DNA from: the human T2T-CHM13v2.0 reference genome, Homo sapiens | Assembly: GCF_009914755.1 (NCBI RefSeq) | Contig: NC_060929.1 | Reading direction: 5' to 3' (one strand) | DNA length: 64,000 nt | Shown: one piece after another, positions 1-64,000 of the stretch | Position numbering within the stretch: position 1 is the first letter of the stretch | How the letters are laid out: each line of letters starts with the position of its first letter | Position numbers and translations under genes: made by a program | Notes under the pieces: generated by a model | Told to the model about the DNA's origin: nothing | What the model saw: only the letters and a program-made list of their open reading frames with translations | The model's database searches: none

Positions 1-2521
1 TTTATGAAGTCAACATCATCCTAATACCAAAGTCTGGCAGAGCCACAACAACAACAACAAAAATTTCAGGCCAATATCCTTGACGAATGTTGATGCAAAA
101 ATCTTTAATAAAATACTGGCAAACCGAATCCAGCAGCACATCACAAAGCTTATCCATCATGATCAAGTCGGCTTCATCCCTGGGATGCAAGGCGGTTTCG
201 ACATACACAAAGCAATAAATGTAATCCATTCACTTAAACAGAACCAATGACAAAAACCACATGATTATCTCCATAGATGCAGAAAAGGCCTTCGATAAAA
301 TTCAACACCCCTTCATGCTAAAAACACTCAATAAACTAGGTATTGATGGAATGTATCTCAAAATAGTAAGAGCTATTTATGACAAACCCACAGCCAATAT
401 TATACTGAATGGGCAAAAGCTGGAAGCATTCCCTTTGAAAACTGCCACAAGACAAGGATGCCCTTTCTCACCACTTCTATTCAACATAGTATTGGAAGTT
501 CTGCCCAGGACAATCAGGCAAGAGAAAGAAATAAAGGGTATTCAAATAGGAAGGGAGAAAATTATATTATCTCTGTTTGCAGATAACATGATTGTATATG
601 TAGAAAACCCTATCATCATCCCCAAAACTCCTTAAGCTGATAAGCAACTTCAGCAAAGTCTCAGGATAAAAATCAATGTGCAAACATCACAAGCATTCTT
701 ATACAACAATAATAGACAAACAGAGAGCCAAATCATGAGTGAAATCCCATTCATAATAGCTACAAAGGGAATAAAATACCTAGGAATACAGCTTACAAGG
801 ACTGTGAAGGGCCTCTTCAAGGTGAGCTACAAACCACTGCACAAGGAAATAAGAGAGGACACAAACAAATGGAAAAACATTCCATGCTCATGGATAGGAA
901 CCATCAATATCGTGAAAATGTCCATATTGCCTAAAGTAATTTATAGACTCAGTCTATCCCCACCAAGCTACCATTGACTTTCTTCAAAGTATTAGAAAAT
1001 AGTAATTTAAATTTTATATGGAGCCAAAAAAGAGCCCATATAGCCAAGATAATCCTAAGCAAAAGAATGAAGCTGGAGGTATCATACTATCTGACTTCAA
1101 ACTATACTACAAGGCTACAGTAATCAAAACAGCATGGTACTGGTAGCAAAACAGATTTATAGACCAATGGAACAGAACAGAAGCCTCAGAAATAACACCA
1201 CACATCTAAAACCATCTGATCTTTGACAAACCTGACAAAAGCAAAGGGGAAAGGATTCTGTATTTAATAAATGGTGTGGGGAAAACTGGCTAGCCATATG
1301 CAGAAAACTTAAACTGGATGCCTTACTTACACCTTATTCAAAAATTAACTCAACTTGGTTTAAAGACTTAAACGTAAGACCTAAAACCGTAAAAACCCTA
1401 GAAGAAAACCTAGGCAATACCTTTGAGGACACAGGCATGGGCAAAGATTTCATGACTAAAACATCAAAAGCAATGGCAACAAAAGCCAAAATTGACAAAT
1501 GGGATCTAATTAAACTAAAGAGCTTCTGCACAGCAAAAGTAACTATGATCAGGGTGAAGAGACAACCTACAGAATGGGAGAAAATTTTTGCAATCTATCC
1601 ATCTGACTAAGGGCTAATATCCAGATTCTACAAGGAACTCAAACAAATTTACTAGAAAAAAACAACCCCAACAAAAGTGGGCAAAGGATATGAACAAAGG
1701 AAATGAACTTCTCAAAAGAAGACATTTATGTGGCCGATAAACATATGAAAAAAAAGCTCATCATCACTGGTCGTCAGAGAAATGCAAATCAAAACCACAA
1801 TGATATACTATCTCATGCCAGTTAGAATGGCGACCATTAAAAAGTCAGGAAACAACAGATGCTGGAGAGGATGTGGAGAAATAGGAATGCTTTTGCACTG
1901 TTGGTGGGAGTGTCAATTAGTTCAACCATTGTGGAAGACAGTGTGGTGACTCCTCAAGAATCTAGAACCAGAAATACCATTTGACCCAGAAATCCCATTA
2001 CTGGCTATATACCGAAAGGATTATAAATCATTCTACTATAAAGACACATGCACACGTATTTTTATTGTAGCACTATCCACAGTAGCAAAGACTTTGAACC
2101 AACCCAAATGCCCATCAATGATAGACTGGATAAAGAAAATGTGGCACATATATACACCACGGAATACTATGCAGACATAAAAAAGAATGAGTTCATGTCC
2201 TTTGCAGGGACATGGATGAAGGTGGAAACCATCATTCTCAGCAAGCTAATACAGGTGCAGAAAACCAAACACAGCATGTTCTCACCCATACGTGGGAGTC
2301 GAACAATGAGAACATATGGGCACAGAGAGGGGAACATCATACACTGAGGCCAGCTGGAGAGTGGGGGACAAGGGGAGGGATAGCATTAGGAGAAATACCT
2401 AATGTAGATGATGGGTTGATGGGTGCAGCAAACCAACATGGCACATGTAACAAACATGCACGTTCTGTACATGTATCCCAGAACTTAGGGTGTAATTAAA
2501 AAATAAATAAATAAAATAAAA
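1..2521 (+). mobile_element. LINE-1 3' portion (L1PA7-like): disrupted ORF2 RT/C-terminus, 3' UTR and A-rich tail
   Basis: ORF2 peptides [32 protein letters not shown] and LFADNM (FADD motif degenerate) in the ORF track, with frameshifts and stops. The 3' UTR 'gtagatgatgggttgatgggtgcagcaaacc' resembles L1PA7. A-rich tail at about 2498-2521. The element runs off the window start. Confidence 0.93.
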
Positions 2522-17622: not shown

Positions 17623-18272
17623 AGATGGAGGACTCAAATGTTTTCATTTAAACATTTTCTACAAAGCTTCAGCAATCAAGATTATGTGGTCCTGGCATAA
17701 GAATAGACATATAGATCAATAACACAGAATTGAGAGCTCATGAATAAGCCCATATTTATGCTCAGTTGTGGTTTGAAAAGGGTGTCAAGAAAACTCAATG
17801 GGGAAAGAATAGTTGTTCTCACATATGGTGCTGGGACAACAGGGTATCTACATGTAAAAGTATGAAGTTAAAACTCTACCTCACACCATATACAAAAGTT
17901 AAACCCAAATGGATCACATGCCCAAGTGTAAGCTTTAAAACTATAAAACTCTTAGAAAAAAACCATACATATTTATAATCATTAATTTGGCAGCAGTTTG
18001 TTAGATATGATATTTAGCATGAGCAACAAAAAGAAAAATTTGACTTCATCAAAACAAACAAAAAACTTGTGCTTCAAAGGACTACCAAGAAGGTGAAAAG
18101 ACAAGCTACAGAATGGGAGAAAATACTTACAAATAATATATTTAATGAAAGTCTAGTATCCAGAATATTTGAAGAATTCTTACAGCTCAACAGTAAAAAG
18201 GTAACCCAATTTAAATGACCAACCAATTCAAGTGTATATTTCCACTATTTGGAGAAATATCCAATTGGAGAA

Positions 18273-18307: not shown

Positions 18308-18459
18308 CCTATCTATCTACCTATCTACATACACACACACATATATACACACCCATATATATGTATATATGGGTGTGTATATATACACATATATACACAC
18401 CCATATATATGTATATATGGGTGTGTATATATACACATATATACACACCCATATATATG
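18273..18459. repeat. (TATC)n followed by about 2.5 copies of a 48-bp palindromic minisatellite
   Basis: Unit atatatacacacccatatatatgtatatatgggtgtgtatatatacac at 18341-18388, at 18389-18436, and partial to 18459. Confidence 0.92.
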
Positions 18460-19005
18460 CACCATTTTTTATATTCTCATTAGTGATGTTATGAGGGTTC
18501 CAATTTCTCCACCACATTATTTTCTAGCTTTATGATTATAGTTATTCTGGTGGTAGTATCTCATTGTGGCTTTGATTTGCTTTTTCCTCATAATGAATGA
18601 ATGATGTTGAGTATCTTTTCATGTATTTATGGGACAGTCCATATATATACAAACATATATATGGGTGTGTATGTATACATATATATGTATATATATGGGT
18701 GTGTGTGTGTATATATATACATATATATGGGTGTGTATGCATACATATATATGTATATATATATGGGGGTGTGTGTGTGTGTGTATATATATACACACCC
18801 GTATATATGTTTGTATATATATGGACTGTCCCATAAATACATGAAAAGATACTCAACATCATTCATTCATTATGAGGAAGAAGCAAATCAAAGCCACAAT
18901 GAGATACTACCACCAGAATAACTATAATCATAAAGCTAGAAAATAATGCGGTGGAGAAATTGGAACCCTCATAACATCACTAATGAGAATACAAAAAATG
19001 GTGCA
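18458..19005. repeat. Long inverted repeat: 215-bp arms (18458-18672 and 18791-19005) with a 118-bp microsatellite spacer
   Basis: Manual reverse-complement alignment gives 4 mismatches and no indels. The ORF track shows near-identical peptides on opposite strands (18542..18862 - and 18601..18921 +). Confidence 0.97.
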
Positions 19006-34900: not shown

Positions 34901-35286
34901 AAATGAAAAACAGGTATTAACTTCTTTATTTACCAAAATGAGCTGATTACAAATCATTTGAGAATGGAAGACAAACTTGGATAATTTTAATAACAAGCAC
35001 ATAATGGCAAAATTGAAGATTCTAAGAGATTAATAGCAAGCTCCCAAATGAAGAAATTAAATAGTAAGGAGGTATAACTGAAATATATAATGTGTACATA
35101 TAAATTATTAATTGACAATAGATCATAACAACAAAATTAATTCTATACCACTTGACTAGTCTAAGCTACCATTATTTATTGCCAGGTCTATTTAAATTGC
35201 CCTTTATTTGCTTTCCTTCATGCTTTGCTATTTATACTACAGTCACATCTCTATACATGGAGTCTTCTTTATTACAGAAACAAATA

Positions 35287-35352
35287 TTAGTTTGATGCAA
35301 AAGTAATGATGGGTTACTGGCAAAACCCATGATTACTTTTGCATCAACCTAA
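35287..35352. mobile_element. MADE1 mariner-derived MITE, internally shortened, with TA TSD
   Basis: 'ta|ttagtttgatgcaaaagtaat...attacttttgcatcaacctaa|ta' matches Hsmar1/MADE1 terminal inverted repeats. Confidence 0.9.
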
Positions 35353-36509
35353 TAATTGCAGTTTTTGGGCTTTTGAAATCATTATATTTGAAAATACAAA
35401 CTTGTAAGTCATCAATTCCATCTTTTCTGATAGGATAATAGGCATTCCATCCATCATCATTCTGTTTCACATCCTGTGGTTTCCTCTAGCTAGGATCATA
35501 GATATTGGAAAGCTAAATGGCATGATTCCTTGGTATTTGCTTAGCGTTTACATTTTTATTTCCACTCTATTGATCTGTGGTGTCAGGATTTCCATAAGTA
35601 TTGATAATTTATATTTATTTGTATTTGTTGTTGTTTTGTTTAATCATTCAAACATATCCTGATTAAGAAAATTGCTTTGTTTGCAATTTCAAGGATTTTA
35701 GCCAAATCTGTCCTGTGCTTGAGGTTGAAGTGTGTGTTTGTGTGTGTGTGTGTGTATGTTTTATTTCATCCTATAAATACTTTTTGGGGTATGTCCCATT
35801 TATTTCATTCTGAAATATGGTAATTTTGTTGTGATTTTGTTTGTGTGTTTTGACTTGTGGGTGTTTTTTCTTTGTTTTTATTTTCTTTTTGTGTTTTTCC
35901 TTATATATGGGGAGTCAAATATGGAGACATATCAATGATTCTACCTTGAGGTCTTTAAGAAATTCCAAATCTCTTTTTTATAAATAATGTTTACTATATT
36001 AACATAAACATCCTGAAGGAGTAAAATCAGGTATTTTTATTTTTAAAGGGCTGCAATTATTTTCCTGATGACACCCAACTATGTGATAGAATTGTGAGTA
36101 GAATATGGTTATTTTGAATCATGGAAAGGGAAGTTCCGTAGTCAAGAAGTAAAGATAAAAGTATGTAAACTTAGACTATTTGATCAGAAAATTTTATAGA
36201 TAAGAACAAAATGTTCGGTTGGTTAGACATACTGAAAATAGGCCTTCGATATTTTCAGGCTCCCTGTGTTGTGATATTTGTGCTGGGTATTTGGATTTAA
36301 AGAATTTAAGACAGTAGAAAATTACCCTCATATCTCCTAACCTGTATACCACATACACATTTTATAACATTCATTATTAAATAGATTATGCAATCAAAAA
36401 ATAAGGGATAACATGTAATTCAGATTTCTAGTAGACATCTCCATAAACCTGGAAACAACTGTGGAAATTTCTCTCCATTGTGAATGTTTATCCTTTGCTT
36501 TTCACTATG

Positions 36510-40000: not shown

Positions 40001-41351
40001 CATGCATCTGATAATAAGATAGAAAATATCACTTGTGTGAGGTAGGTATAAATTTCCAGTAAGTATACTAAAACAATAATATCCTTAATATCAGGGGCAT
40101 CATTACAGGATGGTCTGCATAAATGTGATATTGTTCAAAATTAAAATTATATAAACTTTGATTTCATTAATAGTTATGGTTATTTGCAAAATATCACAGG
40201 GTCACTATGAGTATATAAAATAATATCAGGAAAAAATATCCAATACCCTTCTCAGATATATTTAAAAGTCTAGAAATAAAGGCCTAGGTATTAGTATTTT
40301 ATTCATTTCCAGCATTAGTCACTCATTGTCTGAATTATATTTCAAATATCCAAATTGCCAATTAGTAATGAGATAAAAGAGTGATCTAACTTAGTTATTA
40401 CAGAAAAGTTTAAAGGACTTTGATTTGGTGACAGGATTGGAATAGAATATCATATAATTTTGGTAGGAACCAAAATTAGTTCTACATAAGTAAGGGCATT
40501 TAGCAAAAAATATGTGAAGAATAAGTTGAATCTTGTTAAAACAGACCGACATTGAAAATATAGGACATGTAGTCTAGAAACAGATTAGTAGTTCTTGTTC
40601 CAAAATGGTCTTAATATAGAAAGCTATGGATTTTACAGTGTGAAACTGAAAATCATGCCAAAGGCACATGACAGAAATAGGTAAATGAAAGAAGTTGAAA
40701 AATAATTACCATTTGTGTTCAGTCTTTGATAATTCATAAATACAAAGCATACACAAACACACACACACACACAATGATTTTATTATTGAATATGATCATC
40801 AAAGTAGATAGTGACATGCAAGGGCAATTATTCCATGCCATGCTATAGAAATGGCAGTTAGAGTTCTGGGAAGTTGACTATTGTCAGAGTTACGATGGCC
40901 AAACATTTTTTTTTTCAAAACTATATTAAATGCTTCTCTTCATTCTAGGTAATATTGTGTAGGTTATGCATAAACTTTATTATACTGACCATAATATAAG
41001 AAGAAATGATGTCTAAAATTTCAAAAACTATATTTAAATACTTTATGTAAGAGATGCAAAAAAGTTAATTATCATAAAAAGTGGGAGAAAGACACAATTC
41101 ATTTTTCAGAGGTATTAACTTTTTTGGAAGGGTGATGTAAAAATTAAACATATAATAAAACAGGTATCCTATAGACATTGCTTAGCAAGCATACATTTCT
41201 ATGAGATAAAATTAATAATAACCCTTTTGGTAATTTTATTTTTAGGCCATCATAATGTATTCAAAAATAGGGTGATGGTATATATTATTGCCTCTCATGC
41301 ACAAGCCCAGAAACACTGATTTGGATGCGACTTTGAGATTTTCCAGTTATT

Positions 41352-43686
<2,335 letters not shown>

Positions 43687-43689
<3 letters not shown>

Positions 43690-44169
43690 AGTTTTCCTTC
43701 CATAATATATACCTTTTCATTTTTCTTTTTAATTATTCCAGTTCATTTTACCATAGGTTTGAAAGAAGAATAGAATGTCCTCTATGATGAACATATGTTA
43801 TACTATTGGCATTTATAAGAAAGGAACTAATATGTTACTCAATCTACAATATTAGATTGTTTTCTAAAAATAATTGGATTTTTATATAAAAATAACGGGA
43901 TTTTTTATATAAAAATAACTGGATTTTTTAAAAATAACTGGATTTTTATATTAAAAAACTGGATTTTTATATAAAAATAACTGGATTTTTAGAAAACAAT
44001 TTAATATTGTAGATTGAGTAACATATTAGTTCCTTTCTTATAAATGCCAATAGTATAGCAGATGTTCATCATAGAGGACATTCTATTCTTCTTTCAAACC
44101 TATGGTAAAATGAACTGGAATAATTAAAAAGAAAAATGAAAAGGTATCTATTATGGAAGGAAAACTATG
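43687..44169. repeat. Long inverted repeat of non-repetitive-looking DNA: 185-bp arms (43687-43871 and 43985-44169) with a 113-bp spacer
   Basis: Manual reverse-complement alignment gives 4 mismatches and no indels. Confidence 0.97.
43866..43990. repeat. Six-copy, roughly 22-bp minisatellite (aaaaataactggatttttatat)
   Basis: Core copies start at 43866, 43888, 43911, 43930, 43953 and 43973. Confidence 0.93.
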
Positions 44170-45388
44170 TAAAATGTTATAAGATGATATTTTTTCTTTA
44201 GATGTACCCTTTCAAAGTATAGATAAAAAATGAGTATTTCATGAGCAGGAAAAGTTTTTTAAAATATAAAGGGTCATCACGTTCAGTAAAATTGATGAAA
44301 AAGATAACAAGCATCTGGATAATAATACCAGAAAGGTTCCTGAATAAAAAACATCAGAAATTTGTCAATATCAAATGGGAATTATAATTATGAACATAGG
44401 ACTTGATAAATGAGATGTTAAGGTAAATAATACCTATATAAATAATGAGCAAAAGGCAGTTTAATAAAAAACTCAAATTTCATAATAAATTATATATAAT
44501 TAATAATTTTTTGGATATGCTTTTAAATATTTCTAAATTGATATGAAATATAAGTAAATACATTTTGGCCATTGCATGTGCCAAGAATTCTTAGCTTCAT
44601 AAACAAGATTTTTTAAAGTCATGAAAAGGTTAAATTATTTGGCCACATTGAATATAGGTATATTTTTCTCATACATGTGTCCTTGGTTTTCCTCAGATAC
44701 TCAAATGCAAGTCTGTAACCTCCAAATTTCTAGATTCACTAATTTTAGATTATACTTTCTTATGAGAGTTAATAAGGCACGTTTTAATTACACCAAAATG
44801 CCTGCTATCGCCAGAATAGAGTAGATATTTTATAGTAAAGTTGCACGTAAAGTGTAGTTAAAATCATGTACTAAATATCATTTTTCCTACATAATAATGT
44901 ATATTTGATGACTAAATAATCTTATTTTTTTATATAATCTCTATAATTTTATGTTTGTCTGTATCTTTGCATTATAGATTTATCTATCCTTAAAAATATT
45001 CTCAGTAAAAACCAAACAGTACAGAGAAAGGAGTTATTTTGAAAATTGTTTATACTTAATATTTAATATTTTCCATTGGTGCGTTTAATGTCGTTGTCTA
45101 TAAATTCTTGGAAAATTGGGAATATTTTGAAAATTAAACTTTAATTTTATTTCCGGTAATAATATCCTAGTTATAATAGCTGTACATCTATTCATTAACC
45201 AAAGATTTGGACAGTGAATTGTGAATGTGTGAATTGAGTATCTTTTAAGAAGGATTAGGTAAAAAATTTGATTAACCAAACTTCAGTGAGTAATTATAAG
45301 ACTGATGCTTGTGCTCAGTTACATTTAAAATAGCGGTAGAATTGTTTCTTTTGTATTCATAAGCTAAAGACCATTTTCCCCTCTTAGT

Positions 45389-45911
45389 TGTGATGGTTAT
45401 TGTATTTGTCAAATTGACTGGGTTAAGGGATGCCCAGAGAGCTAATAAAGCCTTATTTCTGGATGTGTCTGTGAAGTTTGAACCAATAGATTGAGTAAAG
45501 AAGATTGTGCTCGTCATTTAGTGTGAGCGTCAGCCCATCCATTGAGGGTCCAAATAGAACAACAACAACAACAAATAGAAGAAAAGGAAATTTACTCTCC
45601 GCTTGAGGTGGGACATCATCTTCTCTTGCCCTAGGACACTGGAGCTCTTGGGTCTCAGGGCTTAGGACATGGACCAGGTTCTACACCCCTGAGCCTCCAG
45701 TTCTTGGACCTTCCCTCCAACATGTACTGGAACTTATACCCCATTGGGTGCCTTGGTTCTCAGGCCTTCCAATTTGGACTGGAATTTCACCAGCAGCTTT
45801 CCTGGGTCTCCAGCTTGCAAAAGACAGATCGTGAAATTTTTTGGCCTCCATAATCACATGTGCCAATTTCTCATAATATCTATCTAGCTAGCTAGTTAGC
45901 TTCGATCTATC

Positions 45912-45958
<47 letters not shown>

Positions 45959-46097
45959 ATCTATCTATCTATCATCTATCTAGTTACCATCTATCATCTA
46001 TCTATCTATCATCTATCTATCTATCTCTCATCTATCTATCTATCTCTTATCCATCTCTCCTATTGGTTCTCTTCTCTGGAGCATCCTGACTAATATA
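45389..46097 (+). mobile_element. MLT2 (C/D-like) ERVL solo LTR
   Basis: 'tgtgatggtta...gtcaaattgactgggttaagggatgcccaga' start and 'cctattggttctcttctctggagcatcctgactaatata' end. Confidence 0.88.
45877..46052. repeat. Compound (TATC)n/GATA tetranucleotide STR inside MLT2
   Basis: Direct read. Contains a pure run of about 11 units. Confidence 0.95.
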
Positions 46098-58974: not shown

Positions 58975-60598
58975 ATTATTTATTAAAAATATTAAGTTCA
59001 GGGATACATGGGCAGAATATGCAGGTTTGTTATATAGAAAAATGTTTGCCATGGTGGTTTGCTGCACAGACCATCCCATTACCTAGGTATTAAGCCCAGC
59101 ATCCATTAGCTGTTCTTCCTGATGCTCTCCTTCCTCCCCCTCCACCCTCTGACAGTCTCCAGTGTGTCTTGTTCCCAGCTATAGGTCCATGTGTCCTTGT
59201 CATTCAGCTCTCTCTTATAAGTGTGAACATATTCTATTTGGTTTGCTGTTCCTGCATTAGTTTGCTGAGAATAATGGCCTCCAGGTCCATTCATGTACCT
59301 GCAAAAGATATGATCTCATTCTTTTTTATGGCTGCATAGTATTCCATGATGTATATCTACCACATTTTCTTTATCTGATCTAGCATTGATGGGCATTTAG
59401 GTTGATTCCATGTCTTTGTTATTGTAAATAGTGTTGTATTGAACATATGCATGCACATATGTTTGTAATAGAATGATTTATATTCCTTTTGGTATATACC
59501 AGTAATGGGATTGCTGGGTCAAATGGTATTTCTGTTTCTAGGTCTTTAAGGAATTGCCACACTGTCTTCCACAAAGGTTGAACTAATTTACTTTCCCACC
59601 AACAGTGTAAAAGCATTTATTTGTCTCCACAACCTCACCAGCATCTGTTGTTTTTGACTTTTTCATAGTAGACATTCTCACTAATGTGAGATGGTGTCTT
59701 CTTGTGGTTTTGATTTGCATTTCTATAATGATCAATGATGCTAAGCTAGTTCTCAAATGTTTGTTGCCAGCATGTATGTCTTCTTTTGAAAAATGTCTGT
59801 TAATATCTTTGCCCACTTTTTAATGGTGTTGTTTTTTTCCTTGTAAATTTGTTTAAATTCCTTGTAGATGCTGCATATTAGATCTTTTTCAGATCGATAG
59901 GTTATAAAAATTTTCTCCCGTTCTATAGGTTGTCTGTTCACTTTGATGATAATTTCTTTTGCTATGCAGAAGCTCTTTAGTTTAATAAGATCCATTTGTT
60001 AATTTCAACTTTTGTTGCAATTGCTTTTGGTGTCTTTGCCATGAAATCTTTGCCGGTGCCTATGTCTTGAATGGTATTGCCTAGGATTTCTTCTAGGGTT
60101 TTGTAGTTCCGGTTTTCCACTTTAGTCTTTAATCCATCATTAGATAATTTTTGTATATGGTGTAAGGAACCAGTCAATTTCAATTTTCTGCATATGGTTA
60201 GCCAGTTCTCCCAGCACCATTTATTAAATAGGGAGTCCTTTCCCATTGCTTATTTTTGTCAGGTATGTCAAAGATCAGATGACTGTAGTTTTGCACCCTT
60301 TTATCTGGGTTCCCTATTCTGTTCCGTTGGTCTATGTGTCTGTTTTTGTATCAGTACCATGCTGTTTTTGTTACTATAGGAGTGCAGTATAGTTTGAAGT
60401 CACGTAATGTGATGCCTCCAGCTTTGTTCTTTTTGATTAGGATTGTCTTCACTATTCATGCTCTTTTTTGGTTCCATATGAATTTTAAAATAGTTTTTTC
60501 TAATTATGTGAATAATGTTAATGGTAGATTAATGGGAATCTATACATTGCTTTGGGCGATATGACCCTTTTCACGATATTGATTCTTTCTATCCGTGA
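58975..60598 (-). mobile_element. LINE-1 (L1PA11-13-like) 3' segment
   Basis: ORF2 C-terminal peptides on the - strand ([15 protein letters not shown] region, HCWWE). 3' UTR 'tattaagcccagcatccattagctgttcttcctgatgctctc'. Confidence 0.93.
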
Positions 60599-62240
60599 CT
60601 CAGGTAAATAATGAAATCAAAGCAAAACTTGAGACGTTCACTGAAACTAATGGGAACAAAGAGAAAACATACCAGGATCTCTGGGACTCAGCTAAAGCAT
60701 ATTTAAAAGGGAAATTTATAGCACTCAATGCCCACATCAAAAAGCTAGAATGATCTCAAGCTAACAACCTAACATCACAACTAAAATAACTAGAGAACCA
60801 AGAGCAAACACACCACAAAACTAGCAGAATATAAGAAATAACCAAGATCTGACCTGAACTAAAGGAGATAGAGGGATAAAAAACCCTTCAAAAATTCAAG
60901 GAATCCAGGAGCTGCTTTTTTTTTTAAATAATAAAATATACTGCTAGCTAGTGTGATAAAGAAGAAAACATAGAAGATTCAAATAAATACAAACAGAAAT
61001 GGTAAGGGGAATATCACCACTGATCCCACAAAAAAACAAACAAAAAAAATTAGAGGCTGCTATGAATACCTCTGTGCACACAAACTACAAAATTTAGAAG
61101 AAATGGATAAATTCCCAGACACATATGCCCTCCCAAGACTGAACTAGGAAGAAACTGAAACCCTGAATAGGCCAATAACAATTTCTGAAATTGAGGCAGC
61201 AATAAATAGCCTACCAAGCAGAAAAAGGCTAGGACCAGATGGATTCAGAGCTGAATTTTACCAGAGGTATGAAGAAGAGCTGGCAGGATTTCTACTGAAA
61301 CTATTCCAAAAAATTGAATAGGAGGGACTCGTCCCTAACTTATTACATAAGGCCATTATCATTCTGATACCAAAAGCTGGTAGAGATACAACAGAAAAAG
61401 AAATCTTCAGGCCAATATCCTTGATGAACATTAATGCAAAAATCCTCAACAAAATACTGGCAAATAGAATCCAGCAGCAGATCAAAAAGCTTATACATCT
61501 TGAGCAAATAGGTGTCATCCATGGGATGCAAGGTTGGTTCAAGATATGCAAATCAATAAATGTGATTAATCACATAAACAGGTCTAAAGACAATAACCAC
61601 ACGATTATCTCAATAGATACAGAAAATGTGTTCCATAAAATTCTTCATTCCTTCATGTTAAAACCTGTCAATAACTAGGTTTTGAAGGAACATACCTCAA
61701 AATAATAAGAGCCATATATGACAAACCCATAGCCAATATCATGCTGAATGGGCAAAAAATGGAAGCATTCCCCCTGAAAACTGGCACAAGACAAGTGTGC
61801 CCTCTCTCACCACTTCTATTCAAAATAGTTCTAGAAGTTCTGGTGAGGGCAATCAGGCAAGAGAAAGAAGTAAAGGTATTCAAATAGGAAGAAAGGAAGT
61901 CAAACTGTCTATTTTTGCAGGTGACATGACTCTATATCTAGAAAACCCCATCATCTCGCCCCAAAAACTTCTTAAGCAGATAAGCAACTTCAGAAAAAGT
62001 CTCAGGATACAAAATCAGTGTGCAAAAATTGCTAGCATTCCTATACACCAACAACAGGAAAGTCAAGAGCCAAATCACAAACAAACTCCCATTCACAATT
62101 GCCACAAAAATAAAAAATACCTAGGAACACAGCTAACAAGAGAAGGCCAGGACCTCTTTAAGGATAACTACAAGCCACTGCTCAAAGAAATCAGAGATTA
62201 CACAAATGGAAAAAACAAACAAACAAACAAACAAAAAACA
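60596..62240 (+). mobile_element. Inverted 5' segment of the same L1 (ORF2 from after the endonuclease domain through RT)
   Basis: Peptides [18 protein letters not shown] and LSIFAGDMTLYLENP on the + strand, directly abutting the - strand segment. Confidence 0.92.
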
Positions 62241-64000
62241 TGGTTACTTTAACTTCTAATGTAAAGGGAAAAAGAATTTCAAAGCCCTAGTGGGGAATCC
62301 TACCAGAAAGTCTGTTCATCTCATGAATATCATTAAGTTTTGGTGGTATCTGCTCAGCTCAGGAGCAGTCTCCTATTTCTGAGGACCGACTCGGGTTTAT
62401 ACCCGTGGTTTCTGCAGTAGCTGGGTTTGCACCTCCCTAGCCCTTGGTTTAGTTGAGGGAATTAGAAGTGTTTGGTGTATTCAAGCTAAGATGTTCACAT
62501 TCTCTCTTTACTAGGGATTAGAATTGGGGAAATATACTAAATCAGTCCAGTCTCTGAGATCATTCCTCCTGTTTATTAGAATTCAGAAATTAAAAAAAAA
62601 ACCCACATGTTATAAAAGATCAGATAAAGGAAAAAAAAAAAAGACTGGGAAAGGAGAGATGGTGCATTCTCAAAGATTTTTAGTACCTAATCATTATCCC
62701 TTCCCTGAGATCCACTCCGTACTGGACCAGTTTACTCAAGATGGTTTCTTTTAAAAATACAATTTAAAAGTTGTAATAAATCACATAACAAATTTTATCC
62801 TAAAAATTAGACGGAAATCCTGATAAATTTTATGATCTGCATATAAACTAGGGAAAAGTCTTAAATTATCCCAAAATGTATATCTATTTCTGAGGGAAGC
62901 ATTATTTTTAATTATGTCTGCAAATTAATATGTCTGCATTCAACCACCATGAAAGATTTATGATTTTTCTCCTGAATTAATTTCATTTAATTCAAAGAGC
63001 TAACCTTTCCTAATTTATTTCCTGCTTTTCATATTCTAAAACATTAATGTAAAAAGTCAAACTGCATTTAAACTATTGATAGATAAAATAAGTTACTTGT
63101 GTAAGATAGAGAAAAAAAATCTAACTGTAAAAAAATATGGATTTTTCTACAATACCCAATATCAGAGTTTAGGAAAGAATGACCTGGCTTTTAAAAGAGG
63201 AGATAAGATTATGTATAATTATTTCCTCTTTTCCATGAAAATAATGTATAGTCATATAATGATATACATCACTATATATATAATGATGTAACACACTATG
63301 CATTCATGCCTCCAATTTTAAAAAAAATTATTACATCATAGACTATTATGAAACACAACAGAGATGAATTTGTATCCTAAAATGTATATATTAAATATTT
63401 AGAAATTAAAACCAGTAGGTATAACCAGAAGGAAACAACAGCAACAACGTCAACAACAACAACAAAAACAAAATTTAAAGCAATAATGAAAAATAATAAA
63501 ATTCTCCCTGGAGTCGAATATTTTTGGTTTAAAAATGCTTATGTCATAATTTTAATATATTTCAATACCTTACTTGGCTAATTTTCCAAGTGGGTTCCGT
63601 TATGCTATTCTTTTGAAGAATAAAGCAATAACATTTCTATTTCCTCTAACAGCGATTTATAGATAATAATTTCTCAGCCCAATATTCTCCTTTCTACAAA
63701 ATAACTCATTAACCCAAGGTATTCAGGCTATCAATTTCTCTGAGATTAAAAACCGTAAGTCATTTAGATTTCAATTTTCCATTTTATATATGCAATTTGA
63801 ATTTCACCTTTAGCCATGCAGGAATCCCTTCTATTTTTCAAATATATTGCATATCTCTCACTACCAAGCCTTTCCACGATCTCTTCTCCTAGCTTCTTTT
63901 TAGCTCAAACCTCAGTTTCTGCCCATCATTCATGTACTGGTGCCCCTGAGGTTTGTGGATAACTTCTTCTACTTTTCCTACTCATCATCCTTGGATGACT

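What the first reader, a model, noticed from the sequence alone, without database searches (positions are those of the whole stretch)
43866..43990. Hairpin loop built from six inverted copies of the L1 target site
Seen: the spacer is six copies of aaaaataactgga (variants aattgga, aacggga and one with a deletion) separated by ttttt(atat). Its reverse complement tccagttatt matches 41342-41351, the bases immediately beside the L1 poly-T tail 2.5 kb away. Inference: the would-be TSD overhang was copied repeatedly in inverted orientation by cycles of snap-back priming (each linker tttttatataaaaa is itself a palindrome). This resembles the iterative templated insertions attributed to polymerase-theta end joining. 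It would be a minisatellite born from a retrotransposition intermediate.
Basis: partly seen in the sequence, partly recalled or inferred. Interest (0 to 1): 0.75.

Follow-up and report, generated by a model that had tools for sequence, protein, structure and literature searches.

The report
L1 junction hairpin with target-site repeats
An old, truncated L1 retrotransposon in the human genome is joined to a 179-base inverted copy of its own flank, and the loop holds six back-to-front copies of the 13 bases beside the L1 tail, likely a scar of repeated copying while the insertion break was repaired, with no sign of a function.

Summary
A 5'-truncated L1 (minus strand, 41363-43689) is joined by a 3-bp microhomology to a 179-bp inverted copy of its right flank (4 differences). 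The 125-bp loop is six copies of a 13-bp core whose reverse complement matches the bases beside the L1 tail at 12 of 13 (chance about 0.001 on a generous count). L1 insertions with such foldback duplications are published (about 4 of 1,200 somatic insertions; models). The six-copy loop I did not find in 8 searches. The copies need the complementary strand as template, either the partner end or slippage. They also lie on the strand opposite the original overhang, which points to a sealed hairpin opened 179 bp away, or a later flip. A second foldback with a repetitive loop, at no insertion end, lies 25 kb away, suggesting ordinary host repair. Polymerase theta, timing and the empty site are untested. 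Verdict: a new variant of a known kind, one non-functional fossil.

The parts
41342..41354 (+). Left copy of the target site (would-be TSD), 12 of 13 identical to the reverse complement of the array core
41352..41362 (-). Short, impure poly-A tail of the L1 (T-rich on +); its border with the TSD is not sharp
   Evidence: most relatives align from 41347-41365 onward
41363..43689 (-). 5'-truncated primate L1, 2,327 bp; 92-96% identical to the 39 other places listed; 1.8-2.3% private divergence
43687..43689 (+). 3-bp microhomology (CAT) shared by the L1 5' end and the outer end of the inverted arm (5 of 6 if extended)
43687..43865 (-). Left arm: inverted duplication of the right flank, 179 bp, 4 substitutions, no gaps
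43866..43990 (+). Hairpin loop: six same-orientation units (22, 23, 19, 23, 20, 18 bp), each the 13-bp overhang sequence plus a T-run, most with an ATAT linker
43986..43992 (+). TTTTT/AG, inferred first-strand L1 endonuclease nick between 43990 and 43991
   Evidence: sequence; consensus TTTT/A as given in PMC11702581
43991..44169 (+). Right arm: original right flank, single-copy in the genome apart from the left arm
44170..44174 (-). TTTT/A on the bottom strand 1 base outside the arm end; possible nick that opened the hairpin (weak: 7 such motifs in 410 bp)

Best explanation
A 5'-truncated L1 is joined to an inverted copy of 179 bp of its flank around a loop of six same-facing copies of the 13 bases beside its tail, likely a repair scar made at the free end of the insertion break, likely by a host end-joining polymerase that copied the overhang repeatedly and sealed it into a hairpin later opened off-centre. 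Steps: (1, inferred) nicks at 43990/43991 on the top strand and 13 bases to the left on the bottom strand leave the right end with a 13-nt 3' overhang. (2, inferred) Its last A folds onto the T six bases back and a T-run is copied; a second fold adds the palindromic linker. (3, required by the sequence) The end then re-anneals to the complementary strand, either the partner end's single-stranded TSD or the strand being made through the loop, and copies the core again in the same direction; this repeats. (4, inferred) The last T-run pairs with the first A-run and abuts the 5' end at 43991, so ligation closes a hairpin. (5, inferred) A nick on the bottom strand about 180 bp out, strand-displacement fill-in, and joining to the L1 cDNA at the 3-bp microhomology give the present palindrome with the overhang copies on the top strand. 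Shown: arms, loop, orientation, junctions, uniqueness. Inferred: order of events, enzyme, timing. No function is proposed.
For: Arm starts where L1 homology stops in 29 of 29 relatives, with 3-bp microhomology. Core matches the tail-side bases 12 of 13, chance about 0.001; 13 bp is within the 12-18 bp stagger given in PMC10830420. All 6 copies stop at the same base and none runs into the left flank. Array ends exactly at the TTTTT/AG site. 6 of 6 cores in one orientation. Two-linker pattern found once in the 3.1-Gb genome, here; the exact 18-mer unit occurs 7 times, 3 here and 4 as isolated single copies, so it was not brought in as an array. No substitution is shared between units; 2 substitutions in 125 bp against 2.9 expected if as old as the L1, and arms 4 differences against 8.3 expected (P = 0.08), both compatible with one age. 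Precedent: hairpin formation, cleavage and transfer of the overhang to the other strand at the L1 reciprocal end (PMC11702581 Fig. [quoted passage not shown]
Against: ATAT recurs in 4 of 5 linkers, more regular than independent stochastic cycles would suggest, and slippage gives that for free. Units 2 and 3 share a six-T run, possibly a later duplication. Indel excess in the array (4 in 125 bp against 3 in 2,648 bp) falls to P = 0.06 when counted per homopolymer run. The left TSD copy now carries an extra change (A at 41352) that no unit has, so it cannot be the template in its present form. The age figures rest on 2 and 4 mutations with wide intervals. The bottom-strand TTTT/A is common locally (7 in 410 bp). 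A later flip of the loop would explain its strand without a sealed hairpin. No evidence here names the enzyme.
Confidence: 0.55

Rival explanations
1. Seed plus later slippage: the insertion left a two-unit loop, and ordinary replication slippage in the germ line later expanded it to six units.
For: Gives same orientation and a near-constant linker without further assumptions; units 2 and 3 share a six-T run; units form small hairpins; the second foldback in the window also has a repetitive loop with 3 of 3 motifs facing one way.
Against: No substitution is shared between units; unit divergence (1.6%, interval 0.2-5.8%) fits the L1's age, so expansion was probably not recent; still needs a two-unit seed made at the break.
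Confidence: 0.28
2. L1 ORF2p made the copies by non-templated addition and repeated template jumping onto a free end of the target site, giving a concatemer.
For: ORF2p makes concatemers by template jumping, adds non-templated bases and copies DNA in vitro (PMC10830420 passages); copies have sharp, constant ends.
Against: A cDNA jumping onto the overhang would give copies in the normal TSD orientation next to the L1; they are inverted and 179 bp away. A similar repetitive-loop foldback lies inside an old L1 body with no tail nearby, so no ORF2p is needed for this kind of scar.
Confidence: 0.1
3. Pure serial snap-back on one strand, then displacement of the new strand and joining to the cDNA.
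For: Each unit has 6-bp inverted ends around a 6-nt loop and 3 of 5 linkers are perfect palindromes; snap-back between adjacent bases is proposed in PMC2943611; displacement model in PMC11702581 Fig. S9C.
Against: Predicts alternating cores and the overhang left on the bottom strand; observed 6 of 6 in one orientation, on the top strand.
Confidence: 0.04
4. The array and palindrome existed before, and the L1 inserted at the edge with a target-site deletion; the tail-side match is chance.
For: Foldback duplications with repetitive loops arise without an insertion end; inverted duplications are the commonest inversion class outside mobile elements in PMC12350158 (277 events, median 284 bp).
Against: Needs a 12-of-13 chance match beside the tail (about 0.001) and a chance meeting of arm end and L1 end; the palindrome does not continue on the far side of the L1.
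Confidence: 0.03

Closest known systems
L1 insertion with foldback inversion (inverted duplication) of the target flank, 'process C' of Nam et al. (PMC10191854; bioRxiv 10.1101/2022.05.18.492429; passages read)
   Same: Inverted duplication of flank DNA at the L1 5' junction; 179 bp is inside their 52-220 bp range; rare (3 plus 1 cases, 0.3% and 0.1%).
   Different: Theirs are somatic; the passages read describe no repeated target-site copies in the loop. Their model (cDNA extends on the flank strand) does not by itself give the overhang sequence six times.
L1 insertions with inversion or inverted duplication at the reciprocal end (Mendez-Dorantes et al., PMC11702581; abstract, passages and supplement file 1 part 3 of 5 read)
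   Same: Reciprocal-end overhang folds into a hairpin; S9A moves it to the other strand by cleavage and fill-in; S9C gives an inverted duplication of about 126 bp joined to the L1.
   Different: S9C leaves the overhang on its own strand with a single loop; here it is on the opposite strand and six-fold. The figures themselves were not visible, only legends and labels.
Polymerase-theta / SD-MMEJ complex templated insertions (PMC2943611, PMC5068794; passages read)
   Same: Insert copied from sequence at the break, in repeated rounds, with short microhomologies; both snap-back (inverted) and loop-out or trans (direct) copies.
   Different: Shown genetically in fly and worm at other kinds of break; enzyme untested here; six near-regular 22-bp units is more orderly than the overlapping patchworks described in the passages read.
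Micro- and minisatellites born from L1/Alu insertions (PMC3812793; search listing only)
   Same: A tandem repeat that arose with a retrotransposition event.
   Different: Those come from the poly-A tail or internal sequence (partly recalled); this one comes from host target-site DNA at the 5' junction.

Membership tests
[quoted passage not shown] | L1 3' end with poly-A tail | tested here: met
   Relatives align from the 3' end at 41347-41365; short impure T-tract beside it
[quoted passage not shown] | Endonuclease site TTTT/A at the insertion point | tested here: met
   TTTTT/AG at 43986-43992; the site is reconstructed, no empty allele seen
[quoted passage not shown] | Direct target-site duplication flanking the element | tested here: not met
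   No direct match of 7 or more bases at the 5' junction (L003); the 13-bp match is inverted and six-fold. So a non-canonical insertion
[quoted passage not shown] | 5' truncation with short microhomology | tested here: met
   Homology ends at 43689 in 29 of 29 relatives; 3-bp overlap with the arm
L1 foldback inversion (Nam et al. process C) | Inverted duplication of target flank at the 5' junction, about 52-220 bp | tested here: met
   179 bp, 4 substitutions; range
L1 foldback inversion (Nam et al. process C) | Duplication made in the same event as the insertion | tested here: inconclusive
   Arm divergence 4 observed, 8.3 expected, P = 0.08; no outgroup available
Polymerase-theta templated insertion | Insert copied from sequence next to the break | tested here: met
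   Core equals target-site sequence, 12 of 13; no donor array elsewhere
Polymerase-theta templated insertion | Microhomology at the resolving junctions | tested here: met
   3 bp at the L1 junction; 6-bp inverted ends of each unit. Short, so not specific
Polymerase-theta templated insertion | Dependence on POLQ | not testable with these tools
   Needs knockout cells or purified enzyme
Serial snap-back product | Successive copies alternate in orientation | tested here: not met
   6 of 6 cores one way, 0 the other
Minisatellite / VNTR | Head-to-tail array of 10-60 bp units | tested here: met
   Period 22, 5.9 copies, 86% matches; size range of the class is recalled
Minisatellite / VNTR | Copy number varies between haplotypes | not testable with these tools
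   Only one human genome and no relatives are held

The most novel reading that the evidence does not exclude
A self-regenerating copying cycle at an L1 insertion break: the overhang snaps back twice, re-anneals to the partner end's single-stranded TSD, is copied up to the second nick and so ends in the same 3' sequence it began with, five times over. A minisatellite would then be born whole in one germ cell from a retrotransposition intermediate, and such loops would record the exact overhang length and show that both ends stay together and unsealed through many rounds of synthesis.
Probability: 0.3. Interest if true: 0.6.

Novelty: new variant of a known kind. Interest (0 to 1): 0.36.

Why it matters
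How the second half of L1 insertion is completed is still open (stated in the papers read). This fossil constrains it in two ways that can be read from sequence: the strand on which the overhang copies lie separates a sealed-and-reopened hairpin from simple strand displacement, and the orientation of successive copies separates snap-back from copying of the partner strand. Tallying those two features over all reference-genome L1 foldbacks would be a cheap test. It also shows one way a 20-bp-unit tandem repeat can arise from non-repetitive DNA. Limits: one locus, no gene within 100 kb upstream and 60 kb downstream by the supplied annotation, no sign of function, and the parent class is already published.

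Tried and rejected
Donor elsewhere: the 511-bp hairpin region matches only itself; the two-linker pattern matches only here; the 4 other exact 18-mers are single copies. Paralog of the empty site: the 1,046-bp left flank has only four 33-52 bp repeat-like hits besides itself, so the join could not be checked. Survey of other L1 5' junctions: of 58 other loci examined (29, 29), 35 had no junction with 300 bp of room inside the held DNA and were dropped; 0 of the remaining 23 had a foldback or repeated inverted target-site copies (4 had a single inverted match of 9-11 bases), while the same script found the foldback here. That bounds the rate only below about 12%, and some of those 23 may be internal inversion or interruption points. 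More junctions could not be obtained. Indel clustering as proof of error-prone synthesis: strong per base, P = 0.06 per homopolymer run, post hoc; not relied on. Second endonuclease nick at 44170-44174: kept as weak only. Arm-to-arm gene conversion: not significant (P = 0.08). Papers opened with nothing bearing on the loop: 10.64898/2026.01.20.700639, PMC12016303, PMC2666801 (passages). Earlier scan findings were not available.

Full report
Observation. The window holds, left to right, unique flank, the bases TCCAGTTATT at 41342-41351, a short T-rich tract, a minus-strand L1 to 43689, 179 bp that are the reverse complement of 43991-44169, the 125-bp array 43866-43990, and unique flank. The arms differ at 4 sites with no gaps and fold at z = -44.65. 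The array is six units of 18-23 bp. The reverse complement of the 13-bp core matches 41342-41354 at 12 of 13; neither the 10-mer nor the 13-mer with one mismatch occurs in the other 122,260 strand positions of the window, and a generous chance estimate is 0.001.

The L1. Forty places were listed, the 39 others at 92-96% identity. In 29 of 29 fetched relatives the alignment stops at 43689, and the relatives continue with other sequence, so this is the 5' truncation point; its last three bases are also the first three of the inverted arm. Private divergence is 1.8% (41 of 2,325 columns with a base seen in no relative) to 2.3% (50 of 2,146 non-CpG columns against the 9 most diverged of the 29 relatives). 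From recalled rates and subfamily features this would be an L1PA3/4-like element some 12-20 million years old; that label comes from no call. There is no direct TSD at the 5' junction, whereas 11 of 23 other junctions showed a direct match of 11 or more bases.

What the loop is made of. If the top strand was nicked at TTTTT/AG (43990/43991) and the bottom strand 13 bases to the left, the right end carried a 3' overhang with exactly the core sequence (inference). All 6 copies end at the same GGA and go on with a T-run; none goes on with the bases the left flank would template. So the template ended there. The T-run is what the overhang would gain by folding its last A on the T six bases back, and it abuts 43991, the inferred 5' end, so a hairpin could be ligated with no resection (inference). 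The unit was not imported: the region and the two-linker pattern are unique in the genome, and the 4 other exact 18-mers are lone copies. Genome counts from this tool skip some repeats and are lower bounds.

Two orientation facts. First, 6 of 6 cores face the same way. Snap-back gives reverse-complement copies (legends in PMC2943611 and PMC5068794), so serial snap-back would alternate; the complementary strand must have been the template, either the partner end's single-stranded TSD or a strand slipping through the loop. Second, the overhang sequence is on the top strand, though it began on the bottom. One-pass fold, extension and displacement (PMC11702581 Fig. S9C legend) would leave it on the bottom. 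A sealed hairpin nicked about 180 bp out and filled in moves it to the top, as in the S9A legend; a later flip between the arms would do so too. A TTTT/A lies on the bottom strand one base outside the arm end, but 7 such motifs occur in 410 bp, so this is weak.

Timing. Units share no substitution; 2 in 125 bp were seen against 2.9 expected at the L1's age, and the arms show 4 against 8.3 (P = 0.08). This fits one event but the intervals are wide. Against one event: ATAT recurs in 4 of 5 linkers, units 2 and 3 share a six-T run, and the left TSD copy has a change that no unit carries. The indel excess is P = 0.06 per homopolymer run. I put same-event multiplication at 0.55 by a host polymerase, 0.1 by ORF2p, and later slippage from a two-unit seed at 0.28.

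An internal comparison. A window-wide scan found one other long, close inverted repeat: arms 18458-18677 and 18786-19005, 5 differences in 220 bp, 108-bp repetitive loop in which 3 of 3 motif copies face one way between palindromic AT linkers. It interrupts an old L1 body (59-63% identical to the younger L1) and has no tail nearby. So foldbacks with repetitive loops arise here without an insertion end, which favours host repair or slippage over an ORF2p-specific route. Its loop is low-complexity, so the analogy is loose.

Comparison with print. Foldback duplications at L1 5' junctions are described: 3 plus 1 cases, 0.3% and 0.1% of somatic insertions, 52-220 bp (PMC10191854 and its preprint, passages); three experimental cases with hairpin models (PMC11702581, abstract, passages, one part of five of a supplement). 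Repeated templated copying at breaks is described for polymerase theta (passages), and concatemer formation for ORF2p in vitro (PMC10830420 passages). Germline inverted duplications are common as a class (PMC12350158 passages). I found no description of a tandem array of inverted target-site copies in such a loop in 8 searches or in the passages read. That is a limited negative: most subscription papers are not in the library, I did not read the classic junction studies (Gilbert 2005 seen only as a reference; Symer 2002 and Kojima 2010 recalled), figures were not visible, and supplementary tables of Nam et al. were not opened and may hold such loops.

Rarity. 0 of 23 other junctions had a foldback or array; 35 of 58 loci were dropped for lack of a visible junction. 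The bound is only about 12%.

Verdict. A real, unique, non-functional fossil: a known kind of non-canonical L1 insertion with an undescribed (so far as searched) six-copy loop. Origin from the target-site overhang is well supported (about 0.9). The enzyme, the timing and the empty site are untested. Interest 0.36; 0.6 if the single-event cycle is shown and recurs at other L1 junctions.

Noticed in passing
window 18458-19005 (arms 18458-18677, 18786-19005): Second foldback: 220-bp arms with 5 differences and a 108-bp repetitive loop, inside an old L1 body where about 70 bp of L1 are replaced by about 630 bp; no tail nearby. Arm divergence (2.3%) is close to that of the main hairpin (2.2%), 25 kb away.
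   Followed up: partly
window 18337-18459: 2.6 perfect copies of a 48-bp unit with an internal palindrome (both orientations of the same 7-base motif), abutting the outer end of that second foldback; preceded by a TATC run and a doubled 13-mer at 18249 and 18265.
   Followed up: partly
window 35281-35358: Small self-complementary stretch, 79 columns at 86%.
   Followed up: no
window 45877-46056: Long compound TATC microsatellite, 47 copies.
   Followed up: no
window 210-2400 and 59100-62250: Two further L1 pieces in the opposite orientation to the main L1, 75-92% complementary to it.
   Followed up: no
L037 (G000:C12:87245184-87245201): One of the lone 18-mer matches is followed by a partial second copy of the A-run and next bases; probably chance in AT-rich DNA.
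   Followed up: no
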